DNA from: an uncultured Planctomycetales bacterium
GTDB lineage: Bacteria > Omnitrophota > Gorgyraeia > Zapsychrales > CAYJUK01
Length of the DNA stretch: 61,246 bases
Reading direction: 5' to 3'
NCBI GenBank assembly: GCA_964373335.1
Contig: CAYJUK010000001.1
Coordinates: 719 to 61,964 of the forward strand
The translations under genes and the position numbers were made by a program. The notes under the pieces were generated by a model. That model was not told the origin of the DNA. It saw only the letters and a list, made by a program, of their open reading frames with translations, and did no database searches. Within the stretch, counting starts at the first letter, position 1; the number at the start of each line of letters is the position of its first letter. Positions 9,360-25,915 of this stretch are shown piece after piece.

Positions 9360-9364
9360 AACCA

Positions 9365-10039: not shown

Positions 10040-10055
10040 ACCAGGGAGATCAATA

Positions 10056-11425: not shown

Positions 11426-11453
11426 TAGACAATAAAACACTGTAATTTATAAT
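11426..11453 (+). promoter_or_regulatory. candidate sigma70-type promoter (TAGACA, 16 nt, TATAAT) in the 282-nt gap before the phosphonate module
   Basis: -35-like 11426-11431 and -10 11448-11453. The 10-nt direct repeat tgtaatttat occurs at 11441-11450 and 11458-11467, overlapping the -10. In an AT-rich gap a chance match is possible. Confidence 0.35.
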
Positions 11454-11585: not shown

Positions 11586-13256
11586 TTGAATATGATTGAA
11601 AAGAATCAGTTTCAAGGGAAAAGGCTGAATGAATCTTTAGGCAATAATGAGCTTCGAGAATATTTAGCTAATAAAGCTGAAACAAGTCTTGGAAAGATTG
11701 CCGTTCCGCATTCTCCTGATTTCAGGTATTACAAAAAGCCTATCCTGTCCAACATCGAAGTGTTGTTGATTGCCCCTCCCATTACTATCCCTCAGAACAT
11801 GATCAAAAGATGTATTCCGCCTCTGGGATTGAGTTATATTGCCGGATTCATTGAATCAGCAGGGTATAATATTTCGATGATCGATTGTGTTGTCGAAGGA
11901 TATGAACAGGAGATGCTGGATGGGAATCTCCTGACGTATGGATTAACCCCTCAGAAGATTGAGCAGCGATTAAGGTTATGTAAGCCGCCTGATGTGGTTT
12001 GCACCTCTGTTTTGTTTTCTACCGACCTGAATAATTTGTTCGCTCTCACCAGACGTGTTAGAAATGTTTTTCCAGAGACTATTATCGTGGTTGGAGGATT
12101 GCACCCCACCATTTATCCTAAAGATATATTCGAAATAGACCAGTCGTGCAATGGTCCTGATCGGACAGTTGATTTTGTTTTCCGCGGCGAGGGGGAACAC
12201 CGTATTGTTGAATTTTTAAGCAATTTAAAGCAGGGAAAAATTGACCGTAATGCCGATGGATTGGTTGGGTTTATTAATGATGAGTTCTTTTGTAATCATC
12301 AGAGATCCACAATCGACAATCTCGATGAGCTGCCTTTTCCAGCTTATCACCTTCTTCCCATGGAGAGGTATTTTGAAATCAATGTTCCGTTTTCCCCGGT
12401 GCCGCAGGGATCACGTGTTGCCCAAGTTTTGACATCTCGTGGCTGCCCGGTGAGTTGTACGTTTTGCGCGAGTACCAACATGTACAAAAAATTTCGATAT
12501 CGTTCAGTGGAAAATGTTATCGCCGAGATTAAAGATTTGAAAGAAAGGTACGGTATTGATGAGGTCCAATTTGCAGATGACAATTTGACCCTTGATCGAA
12601 AGCATTCCATAGAATTTTTTACAGCCCTTCGGGATGTGGGAATCAAGTGGTGTACTCCCAACGGCACAATGATTAATACTCTCACCCCCGAGTTAATGGA
12701 TCTTATGGCCCAATCAGGACTTTATCAGATTACTTTATCATTGGATAGCGGCAGTGCCCGGACCCTGAAGGAACTCCATCATAAACCGGTGAATTTAAAC
12801 AGCATTCCCGGATTGATCGCCAAAGCCAAAGAGTATGGGATCTTTACTCATGGGACATTGGTTGTCGGCATGCCGGGGGAAACTATAGAAGATATTGAAG
12901 AAGGGTTTAATTTTGTTAAGAATCATCTGGCCTTTACCAGTATATCCGTTTTTATCGCAACGGCCATTCCCGGTTCGGAACTTTATCATCAAGCCTTAGA
13001 AAAAAAGCTAATCACTAAAGAAGATGCCCATCGGGTCAATTTTACGAAAAGCCGAATACATTTAGCCAATATTGATCCCCTCCTTTTGGAAGAACGGGTT
13101 AAAAGGTTTTATGCCGATTTTACCGAGATTGCCAAGAAGCGTGACCCTGAAGAATATTACCGGAAATATTCGAATCTGATCAGATCCAAGAAGAATACAC
13201 ATTTCATTGAGGCGAGCTCAGAAGTGGAAGGGGTTTCTGTCGTCCGGCTTACTTAA
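11586..13256 (+). CDS. cobalamin-binding-domain radical SAM enzyme (class B), substrate unknown
   Basis: N-terminal B12-binding-like Rossmann (VLLIAPP.., VVGGLHPT), then a CxxxCxxC cluster in SRGCPVSCTFCAS. The track start is a TTG; the ATG at 11592 is an equally plausible start. Confidence 0.78.
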   Translation: MNMIEKNQFQGKRLNESLGNNELREYLANKAETSLGKIAVPHSPDFRYYKKPILSNIEVLLIAPPITIPQNMIKRCIPPLGLSYIAGFIESAGYNISMIDCVVEGYEQEMLDGNLLTYGLTPQKIEQRLRLCKPPDVVCTSVLFSTDLNNLFALTRRVRNVFPETIIVVGGLHPTIYPKDIFEIDQSCNGPDRTVDFVFRGEGEHRIVEFLSNLKQGKIDRNADGLVGFINDEFFCNHQRSTIDNLDELPFPAYHLLPMERYFEINVPFSPVPQGSRVAQVLTSRGCPVSCTFCASTNMYKKFRYRSVENVIAEIKDLKERYGIDEVQFADDNLTLDRKHSIEFFTALRDVGIKWCTPNGTMINTLTPELMDLMAQSGLYQITLSLDSGSARTLKELHHKPVNLNSIPGLIAKAKEYGIFTHGTLVVGMPGETIEDIEEGFNFVKNHLAFTSISVFIATAIPGSELYHQALEKKLITKEDAHRVNFTKSRIHLANIDPLLLEERVKRFYADFTEIAKKRDPEEYYRKYSNLIRSKKNTHFIEASSEVEGVSVVRLT

Positions 13257-13277
13257 CCTTATCATGATTAAAATTTC

Positions 13278-14039
13278 ATGAACAAAGAGAGAACGCTTTT
13301 AAGTCCAGCGCATTGGCGGCAAATCAGCGAAGAAACCAGGATAAGGCTGGGGAGGCAAGGTTTTTATAATACCGCTTTTTCCGAAAGATTTTTCGATATC
13401 TTGAGTTATTTGTTATGTCCCATTTTTCTGAAAGCCAGGATTTCCGCAAATTTCATAACATTTTGCACCTTGGTCTGGGGAGCAATCAGTGCCCTGATTA
13501 TTAGTGTAGGGACACACCCAGCCTGGATCATTGGACTTTTGATCTTTACCATGACCAATCTGTTAGACCACATTGATGGCAGAGTTGCCAGCAGTACCCA
13601 TACGGCTACCTATTACGGATATTTTATTGACGGGTTGACAGACGCGTTTGTTTTATGTCTTTTCCGTTTTGGCCTGGTGATCTCTATTTATAAACAGTTT
13701 CATTTTTCAACGCTCTTTATCCTGGCCATGAGTGTTCTAATTTTAACCCCGTTTTATATTTTTATTTATGACAAATACGCGGCTTTTGCCAGAAGGATTA
13801 ATCAAGAAAAAAATACGAATATCAAGCCGTATGTTCGCAATGATCATCTCAAGGTCCCGGCGAATCTTGTTATTGATTTAGAACGGGTAGCTTTATTAAT
13901 ATCTCTTTTTCACTTTCCAACGGGGCTGTGGATTTATTTTTCTCTGAATCTCTGCCTGGAAATGGGATTTATTTTTTATCATATCTTTTGCGCTTATCAA
14001 CAAATGCGGATTTCAAATTTAGAGATGTTAAGAAGTTGA
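13278..14039 (+). CDS. CDP-alcohol phosphotransferase-family membrane protein
   Basis: Polytopic hydrophobic protein. DHIDGRVASSTHTATYYGYFIDGLTDAF fits DGx2ARx8Gx3Dx3D, except that Arg is replaced by Ser. Confidence 0.7.
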   Translation: MNKERTLLSPAHWRQISEETRIRLGRQGFYNTAFSERFFDILSYLLCPIFLKARISANFITFCTLVWGAISALIISVGTHPAWIIGLLIFTMTNLLDHIDGRVASSTHTATYYGYFIDGLTDAFVLCLFRFGLVISIYKQFHFSTLFILAMSVLILTPFYIFIYDKYAAFARRINQEKNTNIKPYVRNDHLKVPANLVIDLERVALLISLFHFPTGLWIYFSLNLCLEMGFIFYHIFCAYQQMRISNLEMLRS

Positions 14040-14059
14040 GAAGGCGATTGGGAAAAAGT

Positions 14060-14683
14060 ATGGAAGAATTCGATTGGCATAAAGTTTGGGAGAGAAAAGG
14101 TCTGCTCGCGACAGATGATTTAGGGGTGTTGGATGGATATGAGTATACAGAGATAACTCCGGAAGAAGTGGCGCAGAGAATAACAAAAATTTTGGATATC
14201 AAAAAAGAAGACAGGATTTTGGAAGTCGGGTGCGGGGCAGGGGCTGTTGCTGCCTATTTAGATTGTCATTATGTTGGGATTGATTACTCATTCCCTTTAG
14301 TTAAGAAACATATCAAGATTCTTAATCATCAGGTATTGTATGGGGAAGCGAATAATCTTATTTTTAAAGACAAGTCTTTTGATAAGGTTTTCTGCTTTAG
14401 TGTCTTTCAATATTTTCCTGGTAAAGACTATGCCTTGCAAACCATGGCGGAGATGAAAAGAGTGGCACGAATAAGTGTCTTGATTTGTGATTTGGCTCTT
14501 AAATCTCATCGGAAAGAACATTTCGTGTACGAAAAATCTGACTTTGAGGGGTGGGAAATCAGCGAGGGCTTTCATGCCAGCAATGGATCATTACGGTTTA
14601 ATGCCAGGTTTGATCTTGGGACAAAAAATCCCATTTCAGGCAAGGAATTAGATAAAAGATGGCTTACCATTTCATCATTATAG
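14060..14683 (+). CDS. class I SAM-dependent methyltransferase
   Basis: Start moved to the ATG at 14060; the track start at 13928 lies inside the upstream membrane-protein gene. SAM motif I ILEVGCGAGAVAAYL and a motif-II-like FDKVFCFSVFQYF. Confidence 0.8.
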   Translation: MEEFDWHKVWERKGLLATDDLGVLDGYEYTEITPEEVAQRITKILDIKKEDRILEVGCGAGAVAAYLDCHYVGIDYSFPLVKKHIKILNHQVLYGEANNLIFKDKSFDKVFCFSVFQYFPGKDYALQTMAEMKRVARISVLICDLALKSHRKEHFVYEKSDFEGWEISEGFHASNGSLRFNARFDLGTKNPISGKELDKRWLTISSL

Positions 14684-14687
14684 AAAT

Positions 14688-16349
14688 ATGAAAAAAGAAG
14701 AATTTGCTAAGTTGATAAAAAGTAACAGCCTTATTTATACCATGGGTGCTCATAATGGTCTCAGTGCCAAGCTGGCTGAACGCAATGGATTTGATGCTGT
14801 TTGGGCCAGTGGTTTAGAGATATCAGCATCCTATGCCGTCCCGGACGCAAATATCCTGACGATGACCCAGTATCTGGAGAAGTCCTGTGAAATGAACGAA
14901 GCCATATCTCTTCCAGTTGTCTGTGACTGTGATACGGGATATGGAAACTCAAATAATGTTATTTATTTAGTTAAGAAATATGAGGCGGCCGGTATGGCCG
15001 CTATATGTTTAGAAGATAAGTTGTTTCCTAAAGCAAATAGTTTTATTAAAGGCCGTCAGGAGTTAGCTCCTATCGCGGAATTCGTAGGAAAAATTATGGC
15101 CGCAAAGAGTACGCAGAGGAGCGAAAATTTTAAACTTATCGCCCGGGTAGAAGCGCTTATTGCCGGATGGGACGAATCAGAGGCCCTTTTAAGAGCTGAG
15201 AAATATGTTGAAGCCGGAGCCGATGCAATCTTGATCCATTCCAAACAGTCGCATTATGATCAAATTATCAGTTTCGCCAAAAAATGGGGAAAGCAATCTC
15301 CGTTAGTGATTGTTCCTACGACTTACCCAACGATCATGAAAGATTTGACAGAAGAAGAATTGTTAGGATTAGGTATCAAGATGGTTATTTTCGCCAATCA
15401 GGGAATTAGGGCGAGTATAAAGGTGATGAATGACGTTATGTCCAGGATTCGAAAAATGCGGCATACCTGCGCGGTCGAAAAGGATATTGTTTCCATGGGA
15501 GAAGTTTTTGAACTGCAGGGGATGACGCAGATGAATGCGAGTGAACGGAAGTATTTAAAGACGGCCACCGAGGAATTTAATGCTATTTTTTTGGCTGCCG
15601 GGGGCCCGCACAATCAAGACGATCTAGCCCCGTTGTTACGAGATAGACCGGTCGCTTTGCTGGATATTAATGGACAGTCTTTGTTAAAAAGAAATGTGTC
15701 CACTATCTCTAAGTTTAATGTTGATCAGATTACTGTCGTGACCGGATATTGCAGTGAGCAATTTAACCTCGAAGGAGTTTCCTTAATTCATAATCTGGAA
15801 TATAACGAAAAAAATATTTTACATTCACTGATGTTGGCCGAAGAAAAATTGACCGGGAGGGTTTTGCTGGCTTATGCGGATGTATTCTTTGAGAAAGAGA
15901 TAGTAGAGAAACTTTTAAAGACCGAGAATGATATCGTGCTGGTCGGGGATCCGACATTCAAAAATATTAAAAATACCCGTAATAGCAAATTAGATCTACT
16001 CATTACAGATAGCCAACCCAACATTAGCCACCGATCCATCGATGATAATTATCTGCCTAAAGTTCTCAAAATCGGAGATCACATTGCGGAAGAAAATGCC
16101 CATTACGAATTTGTTGGTCTGGCTTTCTTGAGTGAGAAAGGTATTGGGTTGTTAAGGGAAGTTTACCACGATATGAAAGACGGAAACCCAGGTCATAAAC
16201 ATAAAGATTTTGATAAGATGACTATCAATGATGTTTTACAGGAGATCATAAACCGAAAATTTCCCATCCATGTATTGAAGGTCAACTCAGGTTGGGTAGA
16301 AATACATTCCTTTGAGAATTACCGATTAGCCTGTTCGAGTATAAAATGA
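14688..16349 (+). CDS. ppm: phosphoenolpyruvate mutase fused to a C-terminal nucleotidyltransferase-like domain
   Basis: The N-terminal ~290 aa carry the PEP mutase signature EDKxxxxxNS (CLEDKLFPKANS) and DCDTGYGN. The C-terminal ~250 aa start with IFLAAGGPH..LLDINGQSLLKRNV, which is MobA/NTP_transf-like. Confidence 0.82.
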   Translation: MKKEEFAKLIKSNSLIYTMGAHNGLSAKLAERNGFDAVWASGLEISASYAVPDANILTMTQYLEKSCEMNEAISLPVVCDCDTGYGNSNNVIYLVKKYEAAGMAAICLEDKLFPKANSFIKGRQELAPIAEFVGKIMAAKSTQRSENFKLIARVEALIAGWDESEALLRAEKYVEAGADAILIHSKQSHYDQIISFAKKWGKQSPLVIVPTTYPTIMKDLTEEELLGLGIKMVIFANQGIRASIKVMNDVMSRIRKMRHTCAVEKDIVSMGEVFELQGMTQMNASERKYLKTATEEFNAIFLAAGGPHNQDDLAPLLRDRPVALLDINGQSLLKRNVSTISKFNVDQITVVTGYCSEQFNLEGVSLIHNLEYNEKNILHSLMLAEEKLTGRVLLAYADVFFEKEIVEKLLKTENDIVLVGDPTFKNIKNTRNSKLDLLITDSQPNISHRSIDDNYLPKVLKIGDHIAEENAHYEFVGLAFLSEKGIGLLREVYHDMKDGNPGHKHKDFDKMTINDVLQEIINRKFPIHVLKVNSGWVEIHSFENYRLACSSIK

Positions 16350-16417
16350 TCAGTGAGGAATCGATTTTTAACTTAATGCAATAAGCTCAGAATTAAAAAG
16401 ATTAAGGATGCGACGAT

Positions 16418-18187
16418 ATGCCATTAAACAATAAAAACTATACTATTGAGGATATCATAAGCAATGGATATGGCAATGATAGAAAGATGGGATTGCGAAT
16501 CCTATTTGTCTATGCGAATACCGCCGGTGACCCGCTTGTCCCGGTAGGGATCCCGCAGCTTTATGCCGTTATTAAACAAAATTCCCATCAAGCCCGTCTC
16601 TTCGACACAACGTGGTATCGTTCACCGTTTTTCAGCTCTGACACAGGTAATAAAGAACGAGCGGCCACATTAAGCATCAGAGCAACAAATCCTGAGGATG
16701 TGGGGGTAGGATTTTATGATAGAAATATTTATGAGTCATTTGAGAAAGAAGTCGCGACATACAAACCTCACCTGATTGCTATCTCAGCGTTAGAAATGAC
16801 CGCCACGTTAGGATTTTCTCTCTGTGCTTATATTCGCAAAAAAGGATACTTCATTCCGACAATTGTTGGCGGTGAATACGCAACAACCTCTCAGCATCTT
16901 GTTTTTAAATATGATGATCCTGATCGTGCCGTAGATATGCTCTGTGTTGGAGAAGGAGAAAGGGCCTTTGCAGAATTAACAAATGAATTAGCGAAATTAA
17001 ATGCTTCCGCCGAGAATATCCGTAAGATTCAAGGGATCTGGACAAGAGATTCCTCTCTGTTTGGATTCACGGATACACGCTGGGGAAGTGCTGTTTCCTT
17101 AAATGAATTGCCGATAGGGGATGTCGATATCTTCCTGAATCCTGATTTAGGGGGAGATCCGAAAGTGATCTACAAGCCTATGTATGGGAAGTGGTGGAAA
17201 TCCTTGACCGTTGAGAAGGCCAGGGGATGTCATTTTAAATGCGCATTTTGTTGTCATGATCTCTATCATGACATGTATACCAATAACCCCGATTTATTTA
17301 AAATTGTTAACGGTCATACCGTAAAGGAAAATTTTAGAAGGGATAAATCCTACGAGCGTTTTATTGAAGACGCACGCAGAAAGATCGATAGATATGGGAT
17401 GAATTTTGTTTACGTGATGGATGAGGATGCCATCCCGCCTCCCTCACACGATGGATTGCGTAAAACAATCGAGTTCTCTCGTTTGTATGATCAATATATT
17501 AAGCTGCCTTTTTGGATAGAAACACGGCCGGAAACGATCACCCCTGAGGTTATTGGGGAATTAAGTCATTATTGCAAAGGGATTAGTGTGGGGGTTGAAA
17601 GCGGTTCCCCTCTAATAAGACAAAAGGTCATGAAGCGGGGCATGAGGCAGGAAAAAATTTTAAGCGCTTTTAAAATTTTATATCAAAAGGGGATAGAATA
17701 TGTCTCGGCAAACTTTATTCTGGGGACACCGCATGTTGTCGATAGGAAGCTTATTGGAGAAACAAGAGAGCAGATGATTGAATCAATCGAACTGGCTAAG
17801 CAGATTAAGGAAATCAATCCGCGGGTAACGCCTGTTTTTAATATCGCCCAGCCCTATCGAGGAACGACCTACCGGAAAGATTCTATCGCCGCGGGTTTGA
17901 TACCTGAAGATTATAGGTGTGGAGATTATCGTCGGCCTTCCAATGCTATCGGTTTAGGTGAGATCATGTCTAAACAAGAGTTAATCGGTCTACATCGATG
18001 CTCCGCATTATATGTTCATTTCCCGCGACAGAGATGGAACGAAGTCCTGGAGGCGGAAACGAATGATGTTGCATTCGATGCTCTCGTTGCGGAAGCCTCA
18101 AAGGAATATTTTAAAAGTACCCCCGAAAATTCACCTGAACAATCCAACCCTCAAGACCAAAATTATAGTAAGGTCGCTGCTCAATAA
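16418..18187 (+). CDS. cobalamin-binding-domain radical SAM enzyme (class B), paralogue of 46102
   Basis: LRILFVYAN..LFDTTWY B12-domain N-terminus, CVGEGERAF, and a CxxxCxxC cluster in ARGCHFKCAFCCH. Aligns by eye with the 46102 product (LKILLIYPN..LFDTTYY, CKGEGEDAL, HRGCPYTCAFCNS). Confidence 0.78.
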   Translation: MPLNNKNYTIEDIISNGYGNDRKMGLRILFVYANTAGDPLVPVGIPQLYAVIKQNSHQARLFDTTWYRSPFFSSDTGNKERAATLSIRATNPEDVGVGFYDRNIYESFEKEVATYKPHLIAISALEMTATLGFSLCAYIRKKGYFIPTIVGGEYATTSQHLVFKYDDPDRAVDMLCVGEGERAFAELTNELAKLNASAENIRKIQGIWTRDSSLFGFTDTRWGSAVSLNELPIGDVDIFLNPDLGGDPKVIYKPMYGKWWKSLTVEKARGCHFKCAFCCHDLYHDMYTNNPDLFKIVNGHTVKENFRRDKSYERFIEDARRKIDRYGMNFVYVMDEDAIPPPSHDGLRKTIEFSRLYDQYIKLPFWIETRPETITPEVIGELSHYCKGISVGVESGSPLIRQKVMKRGMRQEKILSAFKILYQKGIEYVSANFILGTPHVVDRKLIGETREQMIESIELAKQIKEINPRVTPVFNIAQPYRGTTYRKDSIAAGLIPEDYRCGDYRRPSNAIGLGEIMSKQELIGLHRCSALYVHFPRQRWNEVLEAETNDVAFDALVAEASKEYFKSTPENSPEQSNPQDQNYSKVAAQ

Positions 18188-18219
18188 TCACAGGGTATTA
18201 TTCAGTAATATTATTAAAA

Positions 18220-19014
18220 ATGAAAAAGAGTAATTCTAACAGTCGAGTTAAAATGGCGGTTATTTTGGCCGCCGGTTTAGGTTCACGAATGAGAAACATT
18301 ATTCATGATAAACCAAAGGGATTCCTCCAGTTTGGTTCAAAGCCTATTATTGAGGAATCGATAGAAAGTTTAATCAGTTGTGGGATCGAAGAGATCATTA
18401 TCGTAACCGGATATCAAAGTCAATTTTATGAAAGGTTAACCCGAGATCATAGTTGTCTTAAGACCGTAAAAAATCGACATTATGCTTCTTCCGGAAGTAT
18501 GTACTCCCTGTCTTGTGCTAAAGATTTGATTAAGGAAGATTTTCTATTAGTCGAATCGGATATCATCTATGAAAGAAAGGCGGCAAAATCCATCGTCAGT
18601 ACACAATATGAAAATTGTATATTGATTTCAGGAAAAACGAGGGCAGGAGATGAGGTATTTGTCGCTTCAATCAAGGGAAGGATCACCGACTTATCTAAAG
18701 ATTCAAAAAGGCAAGATCACTCAAGCGGTGAACTCGTGGGCCTATCAAAAATATCCAAGCCATTTTTTAGTAAAATGGTATCAATGAGTGAATTATTATT
18801 TAAGTCAAATAGAGATATTGATTATGAAAAGTGTATTTCCTCTTTGGCTAAAAAAGAGGCGATTTATTCTTATAAGATTGACGATTTATTGTGGGCGGAA
18901 GTTGACAATGAGAGCCATTTTAGAAGAGCCGAACAAATATATCCTAAAATTCTTGAAAAGGATCATCGAAACCCCAACTCCGAATCAAAAATGTTTTTTC
19001 GATCCCAATTTTAA
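18220..19014 (+). CDS. nucleotidyltransferase, LicC/PntC-like (candidate phosphonate cytidylyltransferase)
   Basis: VILAAGLGSRMRN..KPKGFLQFGSKPIIE Gly-rich NTP-transferase N-terminus. Sits between the PEP mutase and the phosphonopyruvate decarboxylase. Confidence 0.72.
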   Translation: MKKSNSNSRVKMAVILAAGLGSRMRNIIHDKPKGFLQFGSKPIIEESIESLISCGIEEIIIVTGYQSQFYERLTRDHSCLKTVKNRHYASSGSMYSLSCAKDLIKEDFLLVESDIIYERKAAKSIVSTQYENCILISGKTRAGDEVFVASIKGRITDLSKDSKRQDHSSGELVGLSKISKPFFSKMVSMSELLFKSNRDIDYEKCISSLAKKEAIYSYKIDDLLWAEVDNESHFRRAEQIYPKILEKDHRNPNSESKMFFRSQF

Positions 19015-19027
19015 ATGCAAAATTGGG
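19004..19027. repeat. small palindromic element, copy A (CCCAATTTT-aaatgc-AAAATTGGG)
   Basis: 9-bp perfect stem overlapping the stop codon of 18220..19014, flanked by ttcgat/ttcgac. Same core as the copies at 35.4, 56.9 and 59.97 kb. Confidence 0.75.
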
Positions 19028-19161
19028 GTTCGACGGGCTATGCCTCATCCCCCGGGTGAAAAACTTCACCCCTCGAGCTCTTAAGGGGAGGATTATTTTC
19101 TAATGCGGAGTTGGAGTCGAAAGATGGCTGTGGCGTAACTCAGAGTTAGAGGGCCGGCGGG

Positions 19162-20292
19162 GTGCTCAATACAAAATTATTTGGTGAGGAAATGGAACAT
19201 CTGGGCTTTAAATTTTTTTCCGGGGTGCCCTGTTCCTTTCTGAAATATTTAATCAACTATGCCATAAATCATTTGCGGTATATTGCCGCGGCCAATGAAG
19301 GTGATGCCGTTGCGATTGCGGCCGGCGCGTATATCGGTGGAATGAAGTCAGTCGTGCTGATGCAGAATTCAGGTTTGACAAATGCATTATCACCATTGTC
19401 TTCGCTGATTTATCCCTTTCAGATTCCCTTGCTCGGTTTTGTCAGTCTGCGGGGAGAGGAATCTATTCAGGATGAACCACAACATGAACTGATGGGTAAA
19501 GTAACAGTATCTTTATTAGAAAAGATGGGAATATCGTGGGAATTTCTTTCAACGGATTTTTTAAAAGCCGGTGACCAGTTAAAGCGAGCCAGCCATTGTA
19601 TAGAAAATAATGAATCATTTTTCTTTATCATCAAGAAAGGAACTTTTCAAGAGGAAATTTTGACTCAACAGACCATACCGGATGCCCGCAATTGTGAAAA
19701 GATCATTCAATCGGGACCTTGTCAGCTGCCGACAAGGGTCGAGGCTTTAAAGGCCATTAATGGATGTAAGGATAGGAATACTGTCCTGCTGGCGACAACG
19801 GGACTGACCGGCAGGGAACTTTATGAAATCGATGACGCGGAAAATAATTTATATTTGGTGGGATCCATGGGATGTGTCAGCTCTTTAGGGTTAGGACTGG
19901 CGTTAGCCAGGCCACAGAAAGAGATCATTGCTATTGATGGAGACGGTTCACTCATCATGCGCATGGGATCATTGGCGACGAATGCAGCCTATCACCCGTC
20001 CAATATGCTGCATATTTTGTTGGATAACAATATTCATGACTCAACAGGCGGTCAGGATACGGCTGCTAAAAATATCAATTTTGTGGAAATAGCAGCTTCC
20101 TGCGGTTATCAGCGGGCATTGTATGCGCATAATTTATCCGAATTGACTCAGCAAATACATCTTTGGAAAAAAAGGATGGCCTTAACATTCCTCTACCTGA
20201 AAATTCGACCCGGGAGTCCCAAATATGTAGGACGCCCAAAAGCTAAACCGGTTGAGGTTAAAAACCGTTTAATGTTATTTTTAGAACGATGA
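19162..20292 (+). CDS. ppd: phosphonopyruvate decarboxylase (TPP-dependent)
   Basis: FFSGVPCSFLK N-terminal PYR domain, GSMGCVSSLGLGLALA, and the TPP motif IAIDGDGSLIMRMGSLAT..LDNN. About 375 aa as in AepY/Ppd. GTG start. Confidence 0.85.
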   Translation: MLNTKLFGEEMEHLGFKFFSGVPCSFLKYLINYAINHLRYIAAANEGDAVAIAAGAYIGGMKSVVLMQNSGLTNALSPLSSLIYPFQIPLLGFVSLRGEESIQDEPQHELMGKVTVSLLEKMGISWEFLSTDFLKAGDQLKRASHCIENNESFFFIIKKGTFQEEILTQQTIPDARNCEKIIQSGPCQLPTRVEALKAINGCKDRNTVLLATTGLTGRELYEIDDAENNLYLVGSMGCVSSLGLGLALARPQKEIIAIDGDGSLIMRMGSLATNAAYHPSNMLHILLDNNIHDSTGGQDTAAKNINFVEIAASCGYQRALYAHNLSELTQQIHLWKKRMALTFLYLKIRPGSPKYVGRPKAKPVEVKNRLMLFLER

Positions 20293-20306
20293 GAAGAACG
20301 ATGAGA
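20283..20306 (+). repeat. 12-bp perfect tandem duplication (agaacgatgaga x2) spanning the ppd stop codon
   Basis: Read directly: 20283-20294 equals 20295-20306. Confidence 0.9.
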
Positions 20307-20366
20307 ATAAAGCGGAACATCCTTAATGAGTCATCAAGGCCTTTGAGCGTTCTCTTGCGATGGTAG
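20289..20366 (+). other. 25-codon ORF (MRRTMRIKRNILNESSRPLSVLLRW) whose MRIKRNILN mimics the phnW N-terminus MRLKRNILLN; relic gene start or leader ORF
   Basis: Hand translation. The ATG at 20289 and its duplicate at 20301 overlap TGA stops in ATGA fashion. Confidence 0.4.
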
Positions 20367-20388
20367 TAGACAAACAGGATTAACCCCA

Positions 20389-21531
20389 ATGATGCGTTTG
20401 AAAAGAAATATTCTTCTGAATCCCGGACCAGCAACAACAACAGATTCGGTCAAAAGAGCCTTGCTGGTCCCTGATATCTGTCCGCGAGAAAAAGAATTTA
20501 CTAAACTTGTTACCGAGATCAGAAAAGATCTGGTGAAGGTCGCTGCGGGAGATAAAAGATACACCGCGGTGTTATTCTCTGGAGCGGGGACGGCAGCGAT
20601 GGAGGCATGCATGAGCTCTGTTGTTCCCCCAAATAAAAAAGTGGCCATTATTGTTAACGGGGCTTATGGAAAACGATTCGTCGAGATTGCAGAGACTTAT
20701 CAGCTGGAAACTGTTGTGATCCCGTTCCCATCCCATGAAATTCCCAATCTCAGAATCATTGAGGATGTCCTGAAGAAAGACCGGCAGATTCGGGTTTTGG
20801 CCATCATCCACCATGAGACCACAACCGGTCTTTTAAACCCTATTCGAGAAGTTGGGAAAATAGCCGCAAAATACCGCTGCACCTATATTGTGGATGCGAT
20901 GTCCAGTTTTGCCGGGATCCCAATTAATATTATTGATTGCGATATCGATTTTCTCATCTCTACTTCTAATAAATGTATCCAAGGGATGCCGGGTATTTCA
21001 TTTGTGATTGGCCGGATCGAGGCCCTGAATCGATTAGAAATGATTCCTCCCAGATCGTTTTACCTTAATCTTTATCAACAGTACCGTTTTCTGGAATTGA
21101 CTGGAGAGATGCAATTTACTCCCCCAGTGCAGGTCATCTATGCCTTGAAAAGGGCTATTCAAGAATATAGAACCGAAGGGGCATGGCATCGTTATCAAAG
21201 ATATTCTGAAAACTGGCTGACTTTGAGAAGAGGACTAGAAAAGTTGGGATTCAAATTCCTCCTGAATCAGGAGAATGAATCTCGTATCCTAACCACGGTT
21301 CATGAACCCCAGGACCCTAAATTCGATTTCCAGAAGTTCCATGATCAACTTTATAAAAAAGGTTATACCATCTATCCTGGGAAGTTGGGGGAGCTAAGGA
21401 CATTCCGTCTGGCCAATATGGGAGCCATAAACAAGAAGGATATTAAGAATTTTATGCGAGAAGTAGAAAAGGTCTTAAAAAAAATGGGCCTTCCGCTTAT
21501 TCAAAATAACGGGAAGGTGATTAGGGAATGA
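20389..21531 (+). CDS. phnW: 2-aminoethylphosphonate:pyruvate aminotransferase-type class V aminotransferase
   Basis: NILLNPGPATTTDSV N-terminus, IHHETTTGLLNP, and a PLP lysine in STSNKCIQGMPG. Adjacent to ppd. Confidence 0.82.
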   Translation: MMRLKRNILLNPGPATTTDSVKRALLVPDICPREKEFTKLVTEIRKDLVKVAAGDKRYTAVLFSGAGTAAMEACMSSVVPPNKKVAIIVNGAYGKRFVEIAETYQLETVVIPFPSHEIPNLRIIEDVLKKDRQIRVLAIIHHETTTGLLNPIREVGKIAAKYRCTYIVDAMSSFAGIPINIIDCDIDFLISTSNKCIQGMPGISFVIGRIEALNRLEMIPPRSFYLNLYQQYRFLELTGEMQFTPPVQVIYALKRAIQEYRTEGAWHRYQRYSENWLTLRRGLEKLGFKFLLNQENESRILTTVHEPQDPKFDFQKFHDQLYKKGYTIYPGKLGELRTFRLANMGAINKKDIKNFMREVEKVLKKMGLPLIQNNGKVIRE

Positions 21532-23636
21532 GTCGAGGAAACTTGCATCAACAAGAGAGGGCAGCTCATATTGGCTGGGTTGATACCCTGGGGACATATG
21601 TGCTGATCAAGATCCTTTGTCTCCACAGGCGGTATCGATTTAAGGAGGTCAATTATTTAACCATGAGTCCAAGGTGTCGATGGATTTTTTCCCGATGGTC
21701 AAAACATCCTTTGAAGTTTAAGCAAATCTTTCTTTCAGTCGAAGGATTGATGGCCAGTGATGAAAGGGTGACTACGGATAGAACTTTTTCTAATGTGAGT
21801 GAGCTCATTTACCGAAGCATCAAAACCGAAAGGTTTGTGGATAAGATGCTTGATCTCATTGATCCGCGGTATAACCGAAAGAAGATCGATCTTTATCTTA
21901 AGCAAGAAATTGCCGTTGAAATGAATAGTTATATGCTCGTTTTAGACTTTATTAAGCATTATTACCTCCCTCAGTCGCCTCATCCCAAGGCCCAACACCT
22001 GGTTTTCTTGAGAAGTGCTTATTGGCTGAAATATATCCGCGAGTTTTTTGGTGACCTGCCCGTCAGGATTATCCCCTATTTTAATATGATGGAAAAAATA
22101 AAGTTCGTTTTTGCATTTGTGAGGATTTTGGCCGAACTCGTTTTAAACCTCGGATTGATCCTCAGTGGAAAAGAACTTAAATTACAGGGAATCCCTCAGC
22201 AGCCCAAAATCGCTATAGCTCATCTGCAGGATTTTCATTTAGCAAGACGTTCTGATTTCTTCTGGCTTCCCGGGTCAGGGATAAAAATGCAAAATGTTCT
22301 TTTGTATTTTAAATATGCGAACCGGCCCGCTGATTCTGAGACCCTCCGGCATCTACGGATGGTGAATATCCCGTATATTAATCTTCTTCCTCTGAGGATT
22401 TCCTTAAAGAAGATCTTTGGAGGAACGGCGGAATTTAACAAGTTTCCCACTATGATTTATGTTCGTAAATGTCTCAGTACTTTTTGTGTTGCTATTCATC
22501 TATTCTTCTTCGCTTTAAGGCAGAGGGATAAGATTTATTTATCTCTTCTGACAAATTTGATTGATCTTTTAAATCAAGTTGATTTTTTTGAATCATTTTT
22601 TAAGACATACAAGGTTAAGGTCCATTTTGCCCTGCATGAAACTGGCCGGGATATGATCGCATCGAATATCGCTATGGAGTGCGTGGGGGGAGTGGATGTG
22701 GGTATGCATTGGTCCAGTTATGAGGTAATTCATTTAGCTTTAGGGAAGGTTCAAGATGTGCATTTTACCTGGGGACCGTTATATTACTCCAATTATTTTG
22801 ATAAACCCTATTACTTGGTTAAGAATTTTGTTTACACTGGTTACCCATTTGATCGATTCTTTAAATTAGGAGCCATTCAGGCCAGGCAATATCGAGATCT
22901 GTTATTACAGAATGGCGCCAAATTTATTATTTCGTATTTTGATCAAAGTAATAATGATGATCTGCCGTTATGGGATAAAGAGTTGGAGAATTTTTATCAA
23001 TGTCTTTTAGAGTTGGTGGTCAGGGATGAAAAATTTGGTCTTATTATTAAGCCAAAGAAAAGAAGTCCGGAGGGAAGAATGCCGAATCTTTCCAAATTTA
23101 TTCAAAAAGCGGTTTTAACGAGAAGATGCTTGATCCTGGATGCCCAAGTGTTTCCCAATGAAGCGGCTTTAGCCTCTGATCTGGCCGTTGCTATCCACGT
23201 GGCCAGTACACCGGCGGTAGAATCGGCCCTGGCAGGAATCTGTGCATTAACCTATGATCCCGAATCTCATTGGGAACACCCTTTTTATAAGCAAGGCTAT
23301 CGAAAGATCACATTTAACAATTTGGAGGAATTTTTTTCCGCTGTAGAGAAGATTCGAAATCAAACCGGGGATGCGAAGGAGATTGGGAATTATAATTTCC
23401 TTTTCCCGGGGATTGATCCTTTTAGAGATGGATGCGCCAGTCAAAGAATGGGACAGTACATGCACAGCCTGATCAAGTGCTTTGAGGAGGGACGAAATAA
23501 AGAGGAAGCGATCCTTTATGCAAATAAAATATATCAGGGAAAATGGGGAGAAAATGCTATCGTAAAGACATCTCAAAGAGAAGAAAAGGATCATGCCAGG
23601 GAAGGAATAAAAACAAAGGAAGCCTTAGTGAATTAG
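21528..23636 (+). CDS. uncharacterised 702-aa protein, paralogue of 30620; GT-B/TagF-like C-terminal half
   Basis: ATGA overlap with phnW. The C-terminal region aligns by eye with the 30620 product (IISYFDQSNNDD / IISVFDSTFNDN; GLIIKPKK / FIVLKEKK; VASTPAVESALAGICALTYDP / FTSTSLEALSIQKKAVWYDP). Has internal hydrophobic segments. Confidence 0.6.
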   Translation: MSRGNLHQQERAAHIGWVDTLGTYVLIKILCLHRRYRFKEVNYLTMSPRCRWIFSRWSKHPLKFKQIFLSVEGLMASDERVTTDRTFSNVSELIYRSIKTERFVDKMLDLIDPRYNRKKIDLYLKQEIAVEMNSYMLVLDFIKHYYLPQSPHPKAQHLVFLRSAYWLKYIREFFGDLPVRIIPYFNMMEKIKFVFAFVRILAELVLNLGLILSGKELKLQGIPQQPKIAIAHLQDFHLARRSDFFWLPGSGIKMQNVLLYFKYANRPADSETLRHLRMVNIPYINLLPLRISLKKIFGGTAEFNKFPTMIYVRKCLSTFCVAIHLFFFALRQRDKIYLSLLTNLIDLLNQVDFFESFFKTYKVKVHFALHETGRDMIASNIAMECVGGVDVGMHWSSYEVIHLALGKVQDVHFTWGPLYYSNYFDKPYYLVKNFVYTGYPFDRFFKLGAIQARQYRDLLLQNGAKFIISYFDQSNNDDLPLWDKELENFYQCLLELVVRDEKFGLIIKPKKRSPEGRMPNLSKFIQKAVLTRRCLILDAQVFPNEAALASDLAVAIHVASTPAVESALAGICALTYDPESHWEHPFYKQGYRKITFNNLEEFFSAVEKIRNQTGDAKEIGNYNFLFPGIDPFRDGCASQRMGQYMHSLIKCFEEGRNKEEAILYANKIYQGKWGENAIVKTSQREEKDHAREGIKTKEALVN

Positions 23637-23703
23637 TCAGCTCTATCTATGAACCAGGGGCTTTGGACTTTAGTCCGTGGTCCCTATCAATACAGGGAAG
23701 AAT

Positions 23704-24681: not shown

Positions 24682-24682
24682 G

Positions 24683-25834: not shown

Positions 25835-25882
25835 GGCTGTATTCCCAATCCCTCGTTTCATAAAATTTTGTAATTTCTAACC

Positions 25883-25915
25883 GGAGTTTGTTAAAGCGAT
25901 TTTTTAACAAACTCC
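25883..25915 (+). terminator. perfect 13-bp hairpin (GGAGTTTGTTAAA-gcgattt-TTTAACAAACTCC) downstream of pseC
   Basis: Arms at 25883-25895 and 25903-25915. No clean downstream T-tract, so it could be an attenuator, an RNA-stability element or a weak terminator. Confidence 0.4.

What the first reader, a model, noticed from the sequence alone, without database searches (positions are those of the whole stretch)
11586..23636. Phosphonate module with two cobalamin radical SAM enzymes, two nucleotidyltransferase domains and a CDP-alcohol-type transferase, wedged between two NulO pathways
Seen in sequence: a true PEP mutase signature (CLEDKLFPKANS = EDKxxxxxNS) at 14688; a TPP-dependent phosphonopyruvate decarboxylase at 19162; and an AEP-type class V aminotransferase at 20389. 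Together these are the canonical 2-aminoethylphosphonate core. Around it sit two class-B radical SAM genes (11586, 16418), a class I methyltransferase (14060), a LicC/PntC-like nucleotidyltransferase (18220), a nucleotidyltransferase domain fused to Ppm, a CDP-alcohol-phosphotransferase-like membrane protein (13278) and a coupled 702-aa unknown (21528). Established precedent: Fom1 is a cytidylyltransferase-PEP mutase fusion, and the cobalamin radical SAM Fom3 C-methylates the CMP-activated hydroxyethylphosphonate. PhpK is a cobalamin radical SAM P-methyltransferase. PntC-type enzymes make CMP-AEP for glycan and lipid decoration. Inference: the module makes a C-, P- and/or N-methylated AEP-like phosphonate as a CMP conjugate and installs it on the NulO glycan or on a lipid. 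I do not know of a described pathway with this combination.
Basis: partly seen in the sequence, partly recalled or inferred. Interest (0 to 1): 0.78.

Follow-up and report, generated by a model that had tools for sequence, protein, structure and literature searches.

The report
Phosphonate cassette inside a legionaminic-acid operon
An uncultivated bacterium has a nine-gene cassette in the middle of a sialic-acid-like sugar operon; it makes an activated, probably methylated, aminoethylphosphonate, apparently to decorate a surface glycan, and it gives a natural context to a radical enzyme family whose real substrate is unknown.

Summary
Confirmed parts:
- PEP mutase with the EDKLFPKANS motif
- phosphonopyruvate decarboxylase and AEP transaminase, both above NCBIfam cut-offs
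- a genuine PntC cytidylyltransferase (175 bits to PDB 6pd1)
- a small CDP-alcohol phosphotransferase homologue
- a class I methyltransferase
- two cobalamin radical SAM enzymes
- legionaminic genes on the left and pseudaminic genes on the right

The interpretation needs three corrections.
1. The core (Ppm-NTase fusion, PntC, Ppd, AEPT, CDP-OH transferase) is already catalogued bioinformatically. The first radical SAM belongs to the studied Sden_1168 family.
2. The 702-aa "unknown" is a GT-B transferase (pLDDT 93; best fold match TagF). Its relatives directly follow the WbuX amidotransferase in legionaminic operons without phosphonate genes. The cassette (about 11.3-21.5 kb) therefore looks inserted into that operon.
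3. The Ppm-fused "nucleotidyltransferase" lacks the canonical GxGxR/K signature.

Syntenic cassettes occur in other MAGs. Orthologues of the second radical SAM were found only in such cassettes.

Best reading: CMP-AEP is C- and N-methylated and transferred to a NulO-containing glycan. This is a new variant of a known kind. The product is unproven.

The parts
17..11303 (+). Left flank: pathway for an acetamidino-legionaminic-acid-type sugar. Genes: LegB fragment, LegC, PglD-like acetyltransferase, NeuB-type synthase, NeuC-type epimerase, CBS-NTP transferase, GFO oxidoreductase, CMP-NulO synthetase, SDR, HisF/HisH-like pair, WbuX amidotransferase.
   Evidence: Pfam. NCBIfam: LegC family 443 bits (cut-off 420), NeuB_NnaB 504 (400), NeuC 399 (236), WbuX 351 (203).
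11426..11453 (+). Promoter-like site (TAGACA-16-TATAAT, 11 of 12 matches) in the 283-nt gap before the first radical SAM gene.
   Evidence: Best-scoring consensus match in 11-24 kb. The total number of sites is no higher than in shuffles, so this is weak evidence.
11586..13256 (+). rSAM1: cobalamin-binding radical SAM enzyme of the Sden_1168 family, in a sister subclade to the core family. The start may be ATG 11592 rather than TTG 11586.
   Evidence: NF038361 605.8 bits (cut-off 575), B12-binding + Radical_SAM. CPVSCTFC motif. 67-73% identical orthologues in L001, L002, L004 and L005. Subclade scores 606-615 bits against 692-774 for the core family.
13278..14039 (+). Small, hydrophobic membrane CDP-alcohol phosphotransferase homologue. 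Candidate enzyme for moving the phosphonyl group from CMP to a hydroxyl.
   Evidence: PF01066 32.6 bits (gathering 22). Best NCBIfam hits are archaetidylinositol-phosphate synthase and DIPP synthase, both below cut-off. Motif is D97xxD100G..A104S105..G115xxxD119xxxD123, with the usual Arg replaced by Ser. Five overlapping hydrophobic windows merge into about three hydrophobic regions. Orthologues occur in L001, L002, L062 and L060.
14060..14683 (+). Class I SAM-dependent methyltransferase. Inferred N-methylation (or O-methylation) of the phosphonate.
   Evidence: Methyltransf_11/25/31. A 62% orthologue lies next to the rSAM2 orthologue in L062, and a Pfam class I methyltransferase gene lies in the L060 cassette.
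14688..16349 (+). PEP mutase (about residues 1-296) fused to a non-canonical NTP_transf_3-like domain (about residues 298-553).
   Evidence: PEP_mutase 175 bits. EDKLFPKANS motif. PDB 5unc E 1.5e-90. The fused domain matches only LicC at 34 bits, and its P-loop reads AAGGPHNQ instead of GxGxR, a feature conserved in 100 homologues. 7323 homologues at E <= 1e-20.
16418..18187 (+). rSAM2: cobalamin-binding radical SAM enzyme with no curated family. Inferred C-methyltransferase acting on the phosphonate.
   Evidence: B12-binding 34 bits and Radical_SAM 48.7 bits, CHFKCAFC motif. The only close orthologues (81%, 80%, 58%) where context could be read lie in phosphonate cassettes L062 and L060/L061. 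Phosphonate-only clade in the NJ tree.
18220..19014 (+). PntC-type AEP cytidylyltransferase, which makes CMP-AEP.
   Evidence: PDB 6pd1 (T. denticola Tde1415 PntC-AEPT) E 1.6e-50, 175 bits, residues 10-248. Canonical GLGSR...KPK signature.
19162..20292 (+). Phosphonopyruvate decarboxylase (TPP-dependent).
   Evidence: TIGR03297 399.2 bits (cut-off 312.5).
20389..21531 (+). 2-aminoethylphosphonate transaminase (PLP, class V).
   Evidence: TIGR03301 432.6 bits (cut-off 360.8).
21528..23636 (+). 702-aa GT-B-fold transferase, in an AEPT-linked clade of a family that otherwise directly follows WbuX in legionaminic operons. Most likely a CMP-donor-dependent NulO transferase; alternatively a TagF-like phosphonyl transferase.
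   Evidence: AlphaFold pLDDT 93.2, pTM 0.92. Foldseek top hit TagF 3l7l (E 6e-8), also TarL, polysialyltransferase 5wcn and generic GT-B enzymes. 1538 representative homologues. Gene contexts. NJ tree.
23677..30613 (+). Right flank: pseudaminic acid pathway (PseB, PseC, GDSL-like protein, cytidylyltransferase, PseG-PseH-like fusion, PseI).
   Evidence: NCBIfam: PseB 489 bits (cut-off 408), PseC 504 (424), PseI 452 (340). Pfam.

Best explanation
The stretch is a cell-surface phosphonate-tailoring (Pnt-type) cassette. It sits inside a legionaminic-acid (Leg5Am7Ac-type) operon, between the WbuX amidotransferase and the operon's terminal GT-B transferase.

Proposed steps:
1. Ppm, Ppd and the AEP transaminase make 2-aminoethylphosphonate. 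This rests on family membership above curated thresholds.
2. The stand-alone PntC converts it to CMP-AEP. This rests on strong homology to a characterised, solved enzyme.
3. The two cobalamin radical SAM enzymes and the class I methyltransferase methylate the phosphonate at carbon and probably nitrogen, most likely on the CMP conjugate by analogy with Fom3. This is inferred from gene association and family chemistry.
4. The small membrane CDP-alcohol phosphotransferase homologue transfers the phosphonyl group from CMP to a hydroxyl of the acceptor. This is inferred. The acceptor is unknown. A NulO-containing glycan, or the legionaminic acid itself, is favoured by the operon position.
5. The 702-aa GT-B enzyme then transfers the NulO from its CMP donor to the growing glycan. 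This is inferred from fold and from what its relatives sit next to.

The tailoring set differs between related cassettes, so different lineages should make different AEP derivatives.
For: AEP core and PntC.

Operon-like packing and a promoter-like site in the only large upstream gap.

Synteny: an Omnitrophota MAG (L001 = L006) and a second MAG (L002) have Leg genes, then rSAM1, CDP-OH transferase, Ppm fusion, PntC and Ppd in the same order. L001 continues with AEPT and a 701-aa homologue; L002's contig ends inside Ppd.

rSAM2 and the methyltransferase:
- A metagenome contig (L062) carries CDP-OH transferase, methyltransferase, rSAM2 (81%), Ppm fusion, PntC, Ppd, AEPT and the start of a 702-aa homologue.
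- L060 carries rSAM2 (58%) among Ppm, Ppd, AEPT, an NTase, two CDP-OH transferases and a methyltransferase.

NJ tree of B12 radical SAM proteins: the rSAM2 clade is 3 of 3 in loci with the full phosphonate set. The rSAM1 clade is 4 of 5. The core Sden_1168 clade is 3 of 4 in loci with at least one phosphonate-pathway gene.

L005 places an rSAM1 orthologue (70%) next to a PF04464 TagF-family gene and a Fom1-like Ppm plus Ppd.

Evidence for insertion: homologues of the 702-aa protein at 34-35% identity directly follow WbuX in L070, L072, L074 and L075, with no phosphonate genes between.

The 702-aa protein has a GT-B fold.

Precedents from the literature:
- Fom1 cytidylylates HEP, and PntC makes CMP-AEP (PMC6697681).
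- Fom3 recognises and C-methylates cytidylyl-HEP (title of Sato et al. 2017, listed in the references of PMC9204698).
- Ppm-PntC + PntC + CDP-OH cores are common (PMC8942020).
Against: - No product chemistry is available.
- L004 has an rSAM1 orthologue (73%) next to an rSAM2-like gene in a NulO-type cluster, with no Ppm or Ppd within 10 kb. The radical SAMs could therefore act on the sugar.
- B12 radical SAM genes of other clades are common in NulO clusters that lack phosphonate genes.
- The CDP-OH motif is imperfect: Arg is replaced by Ser in the window, and the fourth Asp is lost in L062.
- Close homologues of the 702-aa protein (at least 38% identity) all follow AEPT, mostly with overlapping start and stop codons, and form one clade. 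TagF is the top fold hit. The protein might therefore be the phosphonyl transferase instead.
- The role of the non-canonical Ppm-fused domain is unexplained.
- The trees are simple NJ trees without support values.
- Context counts rest on about 20 loci.
Confidence: 0.5

Rival explanations
1. The 702-aa GT-B protein, not the CDP-OH homologue, is the phosphonyl transferase. Like TagF with CDP-glycerol, it would take CMP-(methyl)AEP and esterify a glycan hydroxyl, releasing CMP. The CDP-OH homologue would do something else or be vestigial.
For: - TagF and TarL are among the best fold matches.
- All homologues with at least 38% identity follow AEPT, mostly with 4-8 nt overlaps, in the window, L001, L063, L064 and L068. 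In L062 a truncated N-terminal fragment (33% identity) follows AEPT with a short gap.
- These AEPT-linked homologues form one clade.
- L005 pairs a true PF04464 TagF-family gene with an rSAM1 orthologue and Ppm/Ppd.
- The CDP-OH motif is degenerate in some orthologues.
- His366, His394 and His584 are invariant within the close subfamily.
Against: - The wider family at 34-35% identity directly follows WbuX in Leg operons without phosphonate genes. At 24-26% identity it follows Pse genes.
- There is no sequence-level match to PF04464 or to any PDB chain.
- No His is invariant across the wider family.
- The CDP-OH homologue is conserved in every cassette of this type.
Confidence: 0.25
2. The cassette makes a phosphonolipid. 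The CDP-OH homologue would transfer (methyl)AEP from CMP-AEP to diacylglycerol or another lipid alcohol, as proposed for the Burkholderia-type CDP-OH clusters. Its position in the NulO island would then be incidental.
For: - It shares the core gene set with the Group 1 phosphonolipid family (PMC8942020).
- The transferase is an integral membrane protein.
- L058 shows AEPT, an NTase and a CDP-OH transferase near LPG_synthase_TM.
Against: - The cassette lies inside a Leg operon in three independent loci.
- There is no second lipid gene.
- The best (sub-threshold) NCBIfam relatives of the transferase use polyol phosphates as acceptors, not diacylglycerol.
- L072 shows a different, HEP-type phosphonate module in another NulO island, so the NulO-phosphonate link recurs.
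Confidence: 0.15
3. One or both radical SAM enzymes tailor the nonulosonic acid (C-methylation of the sugar or of an N-acyl group) rather than the phosphonate. The phosphonate installed would then be plain or only N-methylated AEP.
For: - L004 has the rSAM1/rSAM2-like pair among NeuB, ATP-grasp and FkbM genes, with no Ppm within 10 kb.
- Other B12 radical SAM clades sit in phosphonate-free Leg/Pse clusters.
- The window has a third paralogue (46102) in another sugar block.
- rSAM1 lies at the Leg-proximal edge of the cassette.
Against: - rSAM2 orthologues are 3 of 3 in phosphonate cassettes, and one of these (L060) shows no NulO-pathway homologue of the window's genes.
- rSAM1 is absent from the WbuX-to-GT-B junction in phosphonate-free operons.
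- In L005, rSAM1 occurs with Ppm and Ppd and without NulO genes detectable by tblastn.
Confidence: 0.2
4. rSAM1 is a true P-methyltransferase, as its NCBIfam name says, and the product is a phosphinate.
For: - Membership of the Sden_1168 family.
- A weak relationship to PhpK (TIGR04479, 97 bits).
- The founding enzyme is reported to methylate a phosphinate in vitro (my recollection of Allen & Wang 2014; the review PMC9204698 says only that C- or P-methylation is proposed).
Against: - P-methylation needs a P-H phosphinate substrate. None of the window's ORFs carries a Pfam or NCBIfam annotation I recognise as belonging to that route. The enzyme list itself (HEP dioxygenase, phosphonoformate steps, CPEP mutase) comes from my own knowledge.
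- The review states that the physiological substrate is unknown.
Confidence: 0.05

Closest known systems
Phosphonyl tailoring (Pnt) pathway: PntC cytidylyltransferases such as T. denticola Tde1415 (Rice et al. 2019, PMC6697681)
   Same: Ppm fused to a PF12804 domain, plus a separate PntC making CMP-AEP from an AEP core, proposed for cell-surface decoration. The window's 18220 matches the solved PntC at 175 bits.
   Different: Those clusters are described with LicD-like phosphotransferases or glycosyltransferases. This cassette has a CDP-OH-type membrane transferase, two B12 radical SAM enzymes and a methyltransferase, and it lies inside a legionaminic-acid operon.
'Burkholderiales_CDP-OH' / Group 1 phosphonolipid gene cluster family (Li & Horsman 2022, PMC8942020)
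   Same: Ppm-PntC fusion, a second PntC, Ppd, AEPT and a CDP-alcohol phosphotransferase.
   Different: The window has no alpha-ketoglutarate oxygenase (the syntenic L001 has a PhyH gene) and no second lipid gene. It adds radical SAM and SAM methyltransferases and sits in a NulO operon. The products of the Burkholderia family are themselves uncharacterised.
Fosfomycin early steps: Fom1 (cytidylyltransferase-Ppm) and Fom3 (B12 radical SAM C-methylase acting on CMP-HEP)
   Same: The logic is shared: an NTase-Ppm fusion, a CMP-activated phosphonate and a cobalamin radical SAM methylation.
   Different: Fom1's NTase is an N-terminal PF01467 domain, while here it is a C-terminal, non-canonical PF12804 domain. 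The amine branch (AEPT) replaces the alcohol branch (FomC). Orthology of either radical SAM to Fom3 could not be tested. Relatives of rSAM2 and rSAM3 do occur in a Fom1-like + Ppd::rSAM + Fe-ADH locus (L003).
SD_1168 of Shewanella denitrificans (Sden_1168 family, NF038361) and PhpK
   Same: rSAM1 passes the family HMM cut-off and has the same B12-binding plus radical SAM architecture.
   Different: rSAM1 belongs to a lower-scoring sister subclade (606-615 bits against 692-774). The physiological substrate of the family is unknown (PMC9204698). I recognised no phosphinate-forming genes here.
TagF/TarL CDP-alditol phosphotransferases and GT-B sialyltransferases (for example polysialyltransferase 5wcn)
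   Same: The 702-aa protein has a GT-B fold. Its best structural matches are enzymes whose donors release CMP.
   Different: There is no sequence-level similarity. It carries an extra N-terminal region of about 230 residues. The TagF catalytic histidines could not be mapped. Family context points to CMP-NulO rather than a CDP-alditol as donor.
Campylobacter-type Leg5Am7Ac (ptm/leg) pathway and NulO glycosylation islands
   Same: The left flank has LegC, NeuB, NeuC, a CBS-NTP transferase, a GFO oxidoreductase, a CMP-NulO synthetase and a WbuX/HisH/HisF amidino set.
   Different: The window has no flagellin gene and no clear Maf gene. A phosphonate cassette is inserted before the terminal transferase.

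Membership tests
PEP mutase (Ppm) | EDKxxxxxNS active-site motif that separates Ppm from other isocitrate-lyase superfamily members | tested here: met
   EDKLFPKANS aligns with EDKRFPKVNS of solved PEP mutase 5unc. The solved phosphonopyruvate hydrolase 2dua has EDKTFPKDTS.
PEP mutase (Ppm) | Score above the curated TIGR02320 cut-off | tested here: not met
   296.9 bits against a cut-off of 319.55. It is the top-scoring family, closely followed by phosphonopyruvate hydrolase (286 bits). Motif and context decide in favour of Ppm.
Phosphonopyruvate decarboxylase | TIGR03297 equivalog cut-off | tested here: met
   399.2 bits against 312.5.
AEP transaminase (PhnW/AepZ) | TIGR03301 equivalog cut-off | tested here: met
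   432.6 bits against 360.8.
PntC (AEP cytidylyltransferase) | Full-length homology to a characterised PntC, with the GxGxR...K signature | tested here: met
   18220-19014 against 6pd1: E 1.6e-50, residues 10-248. Signature LAAGLGSRMR...KPKGF.
PntC (AEP cytidylyltransferase) | The same features in the Ppm-fused C-terminal domain | tested here: not met
   Only 34 bits to LicC. The signature reads AAGGPHNQ...RPVAL, lacking the Arg and Lys, and this is conserved in 100 homologues.
PntC (AEP cytidylyltransferase) | CTP + AEP -> CMP-AEP activity | not testable with these tools
   Needs an enzyme assay.
CDP-alcohol phosphotransferase | PF01066 gathering score and a multi-span membrane topology | tested here: met
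   32.6 bits against 22. Five overlapping hydrophobic windows merge into about three hydrophobic regions.
CDP-alcohol phosphotransferase | Complete DxxDGxxAR...GxxxDxxxD motif | tested here: inconclusive
   All four Asp and both Gly are present, but Arg is replaced by Ser105. Orthologues in L001 and L002 keep AR. L062 lacks the fourth Asp.
Sden_1168 family B12 radical SAM methyltransferase | NF038361 cut-off, B12-binding domain and CxxxCxxC | tested here: met
   605.8 bits against 575. PF02310 54 bits. CPVSCTFC.
Sden_1168 family B12 radical SAM methyltransferase | P-methylation of a phosphinate | not testable with these tools
   I recognised no phosphinate-forming genes in the window, and the family's physiological substrate is unknown (PMC9204698).
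Fom3-type CMP-phosphonate C-methylase | Orthology to Fom3 | not tested
   No Fom3 sequence or model was available in any tool. The only evidence is indirect: a relative of rSAM2 and rSAM3 is fused to Ppd beside Fom1-like and Fe-ADH genes (L003).
Class B (cobalamin) radical SAM, for rSAM2 | B12-binding domain plus radical SAM core with CxxxCxxC | tested here: met
   PF02310 34.0 bits against 32.1. PF04055 48.7 against 29.5. CHFKCAFC. No specific NCBIfam family (best 62 bits against a cut-off of 251).
TagF-like glycerophosphotransferase (PF04464) | Sequence membership | tested here: not met
   No Pfam hit. No PDB sequence hit even with a family profile at E <= 10.
TagF-like glycerophosphotransferase (PF04464) | GT-B fold resembling TagF | tested here: met
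   Foldseek top hit 3l7l_D: E 6e-8, TM 0.55 on the target, probability 1.00. Generic GT-B enzymes score nearly as well.
Burkholderiales_CDP-OH (Group 1 phosphonolipid) cluster family | Seven-gene core: Ppm-PntC, PntC, Ppd, AEPT, alpha-KG oxygenase and two lipid genes | tested here: not met
   Five of the seven are present. There is no oxygenase and no second lipid gene in the window. L001 has a PhyH gene.

The most novel reading that the evidence does not exclude
The phosphonate is attached to the legionaminic acid itself, before or at the CMP-sugar stage. This would create a phosphono-nonulosonic acid, a class of sugar decoration I know of no report of. The C- and N-methylated AEP head group would be built by Sden_1168-type and rSAM2-type cobalamin radical SAM enzymes whose physiological substrates are CMP-AEP or NulO-bound AEP. 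The AEPT-linked clade of the 702-aa GT-B family would be specialised to transfer this decorated NulO.
Probability: 0.2. Interest if true: 0.8.

Novelty: new variant of a known kind. Interest (0 to 1): 0.58.

Why it matters
Most bacterial phosphonate capacity is thought to go into cell-surface decoration. Yet the steps after CMP-AEP, namely who transfers it, onto what, and with what tailoring, are largely uncharacterised.

This cassette and its relatives offer three things:
1. A natural genomic context, and candidate substrates (AEP or CMP-AEP), for the Sden_1168 radical SAM family. Reviews state that its physiological role is unknown.
2. A second, unannotated B12 radical SAM clade found so far only in phosphonate cassettes.
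3. A recurrent physical link between phosphonate modules (AEP-type here, HEP-type in L072) and nonulosonic-acid operons in uncultivated phyla. The insertion point is clean and suggests the sugar or its glycan is the acceptor.

If confirmed, this would add C-methylated aminophosphonates and phosphonate-bearing NulO glycans to known surface chemistry. It would also give two concrete candidates for the missing phosphonyl transferase.

Tried and rejected
**Searches that returned nothing usable**
- An exact look-up of the window's Ppm returned nothing, although the identical protein P0001 is in the collection.
- The Allen & Wang SD_1168 paper is not held.
- The word-indexed homologue search for the 702-aa protein found only itself. 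The exhaustive HMMER search was needed.
- A single-protein scan of genome contigs with rSAM1 found nothing. An alignment-based scan worked.
- The 81-sequence alignment was too diverse for a metagenome scan and too large for a family scan. A 10-sequence alignment was used instead.
- Plasmid tblastn with the 702-aa protein gave no match. With rSAM1 it gave only distant relatives of at most 28% identity.
- Rfam found nothing in the window, including no cobalamin riboswitch before the B12 enzymes.
- There are no meaningful repeats or mobile-element scars at the cassette boundaries. The "insertion" is inferred only from comparison with other loci.
- A profile search of the 702-aa family against PDB sequences gave nothing.
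- The listing of cluster members gave no accessions or organism name, so the source organism remains unknown.

**Tests I could not run**
- A phylogeny with Fom3, PhpK, GenK, TsrM and HpnP/R needs reference sequences that no tool provides. NCBIfam HMM scores were used as a surrogate.
- Homology of the 702-aa family to the Campylobacter MeOPN transferases Cj1421/Cj1422 is an idea from memory and could not be tested.

**Readings rejected**
- My initial reading of the 702-aa protein as a dedicated TagF-like phosphonyl transferase was downgraded after one search showed relatives closing phosphonate-free Leg operons.
- A diffusible phosphonate antibiotic cluster was rejected. No gene annotated as a transporter or resistance determinant turned up among the ORFs of at least 150 aa scanned up to 58.8 kb, and the cassette is embedded in glycan genes.

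Full report
**Observation**

The window is one long, almost entirely plus-strand glycan biosynthesis island. Between 11586 and 23636 there are nine co-directional ORFs, with gaps of -4 to 147 nt.

- The PEP mutase domain carries EDKLFPKANS. In the alignment to solved structures this lines up with EDKRFPKVNS of PEP mutase 5unc (E 1.5e-90). The solved phosphonopyruvate hydrolase 2dua has EDKTFPKDTS at that place.
- The decarboxylase (TIGR03297, 399 bits) and the AEP transaminase (TIGR03301, 433 bits) are above equivalog cut-offs.
That start lies 20 nt after the upstream stop and gives the length of the L062 orthologue.
- The left flank is a legionaminic-acid pathway with the WbuX/HisH/HisF acetamidino set. 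The right flank is a pseudaminic-acid pathway.

**What the individual parts are**

*The stand-alone nucleotidyltransferase (18220)* is a true PntC. It matches the solved T. denticola PntC-AEPT protein 6pd1 over its whole length (175 bits) and keeps the GLGSR...KPK signature. CMP-AEP formation is therefore the best-supported step after AEP itself.

*The domain fused to Ppm* is different. It reaches only 34 bits against LicC. Its signature region reads AAGGPHNQ...RPVAL, without the Arg and Lys of the canonical motif. The variant AAGxPxNQ is conserved in 100 homologues. It is under selection, but it may not be an ordinary cytidylyltransferase.

*The first radical SAM (11586)* passes the NCBIfam Sden_1168 model (606 bits, cut-off 575). 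[quoted passage not shown] Scoring relatives against the same model shows two subclades:
- a window type, at 606-615 bits (window, L004, L005);
- a core type, at 692-774 bits (second copy in L001, L007, L008, L009).

*The second radical SAM (16418)* has no curated family. It has only three close relatives in 5.8 billion clusters (81%, 80% and 58% identity). Below these comes a large family of about 495-aa proteins at 33-36% identity.

*The CDP-alcohol phosphotransferase homologue* is small and hydrophobic. It has all four motif aspartates, but Ser replaces the motif Arg. Orthologues vary at this motif.

**Related loci**

The same cassette, in nearly the same order and also directly after legionaminic-acid genes, occurs in two MAG contigs: a Candidatus Omnitrophota MAG (L001 = L006) and a second MAG (L002). 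L001 differs in its tailoring genes. It has a second Sden_1168 paralogue, a PhyH dioxygenase and a Methyltransf_2 gene in place of the window's rSAM2 and class I methyltransferase.

The window's rSAM2 and methyltransferase reappear together in two other contigs:
- L062 carries CDP-OH transferase 62%, methyltransferase 62%, rSAM2 81%, Ppm fusion 67%, PntC 50%, Ppd 64%, AEPT 59%, then the start of a 702-aa homologue.
- L060/L061 carry rSAM2 at 58% among Ppm, Ppd, AEPT, an NTase, two CDP-OH transferases and a methyltransferase.

A neighbour-joining tree of all B12 radical SAM proteins from 20 loci gives these counts:
- The rSAM2 clade is found only in loci with the full phosphonate set (3 of 3).
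- The rSAM1 clade is 4 of 5.
- The core Sden_1168 clade is 3 of 4 in loci with at least one phosphonate-pathway gene.

L005 places an rSAM1 orthologue (70%) beside a PF04464 TagF-family gene and a Fom1-like Ppm plus Ppd.

The exception is L004, a Planctomycetia MAG. There an rSAM1 orthologue (73%) and an rSAM2-like gene sit among NeuB, ATP-grasp and FkbM genes, with no Ppm within 10 kb.

More distant relatives of rSAM2 and rSAM3 include a Ppd::radical-SAM fusion next to a Fom1-like gene and an Fe-ADH (L003). That is the fosfomycin-type early gene set. Others lie in contexts unrelated to phosphonates (L059).

**The 702-aa protein**

It has no Pfam hit. An exhaustive HMMER search finds 1538 representative homologues. 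With an 81-sequence alignment, AlphaFold gives a confident model (pLDDT 93.2, pTM 0.92). Foldseek against the PDB returns the teichoic-acid polymerase TagF first (E 6e-8), then TarL, a polysialyltransferase bound to CDP, and many generic GT-B enzymes. It is therefore a GT-B transferase. Its best matches use donors that release CMP.

Context splits by similarity:
- Homologues with at least 38% identity follow AEPT, mostly with overlapping stop and start codons (window, L001, L063, L064, L068). L062's truncated 33% N-terminal fragment follows AEPT after a short gap.
- Homologues at 34-35% identity directly follow WbuX at the end of legionaminic operons that have no phosphonate genes in between (L070, L072, L074, L075).
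- Homologues at 24-26% identity follow pseudaminic genes.

The AEPT-linked proteins form one clade in an NJ tree. The window's own 30620-32593 protein, right after PseI, is a distant paralogue (hhalign 97%).

The simplest reading is that this family transfers CMP-activated nonulosonic acids. The phosphonate cassette (about 11304-21527) would then lie between WbuX and that transferase, in an operon that elsewhere has the two adjacent. L075 even shows the window's overall layout (Leg pathway, the GT-B gene, then a second NulO pathway) without the cassette. L072 has a different, HEP-type phosphonate module (Fom1-like, Ppd, Fe-ADH) a few genes downstream in the same kind of island. The NulO-phosphonate association therefore recurs.

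**Mechanism**

Shown by family membership:
- PEP -> phosphonopyruvate -> phosphonoacetaldehyde -> AEP
- AEP -> CMP-AEP, by PntC

Inferred:
- The two cobalamin radical SAM enzymes C-methylate the phosphonate, and the class I enzyme N- or O-methylates it. This probably happens on the CMP conjugate, by analogy with Fom3, which recognises cytidylyl-HEP (title of Sato et al. 2017, listed in the references of PMC9204698). Fom1 makes that CMP-HEP (PMC6697681).
- The CDP-OH homologue transfers the phosphonyl group from CMP to a hydroxyl. Its nearest (sub-threshold) NCBIfam relatives use polyol phosphates as acceptors.
- The GT-B enzyme transfers the NulO.

The acceptor is not known. The operon position favours the legionaminic-acid glycan, or the sugar itself.

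P-methylation is unlikely, because I recognised no genes for making an H-phosphinate.

The main uncertainties are these:
- which of the two transferases handles the phosphonate;
- whether rSAM1 in particular acts on the sugar;
- what the non-canonical fused domain does.

**Comparison with what is known, and novelty**

Three elements are already in the literature:
- Ppm-PF12804 fusions make up a third of all Ppm proteins (PMC6697681).
- The five-gene core matches the 'Burkholderiales_CDP-OH' family, which has been catalogued but not characterised (PMC8942020).
- The Sden_1168 family has been studied in vitro.

I could not find the following described in the searched literature:
- this core combined with two B12 radical SAM enzymes and a methyltransferase;
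- its insertion in a legionaminic-acid operon;
- the rSAM2 clade;
- the AEPT-linked GT-B clade.

I rate it a new variant of a known kind. It is of moderate to good interest because it makes the Sden_1168 substrate question, and the question of who transfers CMP-phosphonates, directly testable.

**Limits**

- The source organism is unknown.
- All comparative loci are MAG or metagenome contigs, many of them truncated.
- The trees are NJ without support values.
- Context counts are small.
- No chemistry is available.

Noticed in passing
window 46102-47658: A third cobalamin radical SAM gene, a full-length 28% paralogue of rSAM2. It is closer than rSAM2 to the widespread ~495-aa family, including the Ppd::rSAM fusion in L003. 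It lies 22 kb from the phosphonate genes, in another sugar-tailoring block.
   Followed up: partly
window 34587-54111: A third CMP-sugar-type block with an unusual gene set: two CTP_transf_3 genes, a 2-hydroxyacid dehydrogenase, HAD phosphatases, an LdpA-like Fe-S protein, an HpcH aldolase, an HMGL-like::MptE-like fusion, a polysaccharide deacetylase, a methyltransferase, and a fused E1 plus E2 of a 2-oxoacid dehydrogenase complex.
   Followed up: no
window 30620-32593 and 32611-34590: Two proteins of about 660 aa with no Pfam hit, right after PseI. The first is a distant paralogue of the 702-aa GT-B protein (hhalign 97%). The second, together with the adjacent CTP_transf_3 gene (34587-35348), recurs at 43% and 70-80% identity in L072 and L073, and the second alone at 25-27% in L078, L079 and L081. 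In L072 it directly follows a HEP-type phosphonate module.
   Followed up: partly
window 15579-16349 (C-terminal domain of the Ppm fusion): The NTP_transf_3-like domain has AAGGPHNQ...RPVAL where LicC and PntC have GxGxR...PK. The variant AAGxPxNQ is conserved in 100 homologues. This very common Ppm-fused domain may not be a canonical cytidylyltransferase.
   Followed up: partly
L002 9279-10004: A second, degenerate CDP-OH transferase paralogue that lacks the DxxDG motif sits next to rSAM1. An intact copy follows the Ppm fusion. L060 also has two CDP-OH genes.
   Followed up: no
L003 6692-11772: A metagenome contig with a Fom1-like CTP_transf_like::Ppm gene, an 884-aa Ppd::B12-radical-SAM fusion and an Fe-ADH. 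This is a fused version of the fosfomycin-type early steps, set among glycosyltransferase genes.
   Followed up: no
L058 2662-9488 and L059 5090-9488: A conserved trio of a molybdopterin oxidoreductase, an AP_endonuc_2 (xylose-isomerase-like) protein and a 495-aa B12 radical SAM enzyme. It is next to AEPT, NTase and CDP-OH genes in L058 but has no phosphonate genes nearby in L059.
   Followed up: no
L063 4833-9302 and L072 12088-15601: Homologues of the 702-aa protein are followed by an ABC exporter. In L072 a PMT_2-like GT-C protein comes in between. In L063 an APS kinase, an ATP sulfurylase and a pyruvate kinase follow the exporter.
   Followed up: no
window 25944-27149 and 28067-29572: A GDSL-like protein is inserted between PseC and the cytidylyltransferase. 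A 501-aa PseG-like::GNAT (PseH-like) fusion follows; both halves score below their NCBIfam cut-offs.
   Followed up: no
window 11304-11585: The only large intergenic gap in the region (283 nt, AT-rich). It holds the best promoter-like match (11426-11453). It has no Rfam hit, including no cobalamin riboswitch.
   Followed up: partly
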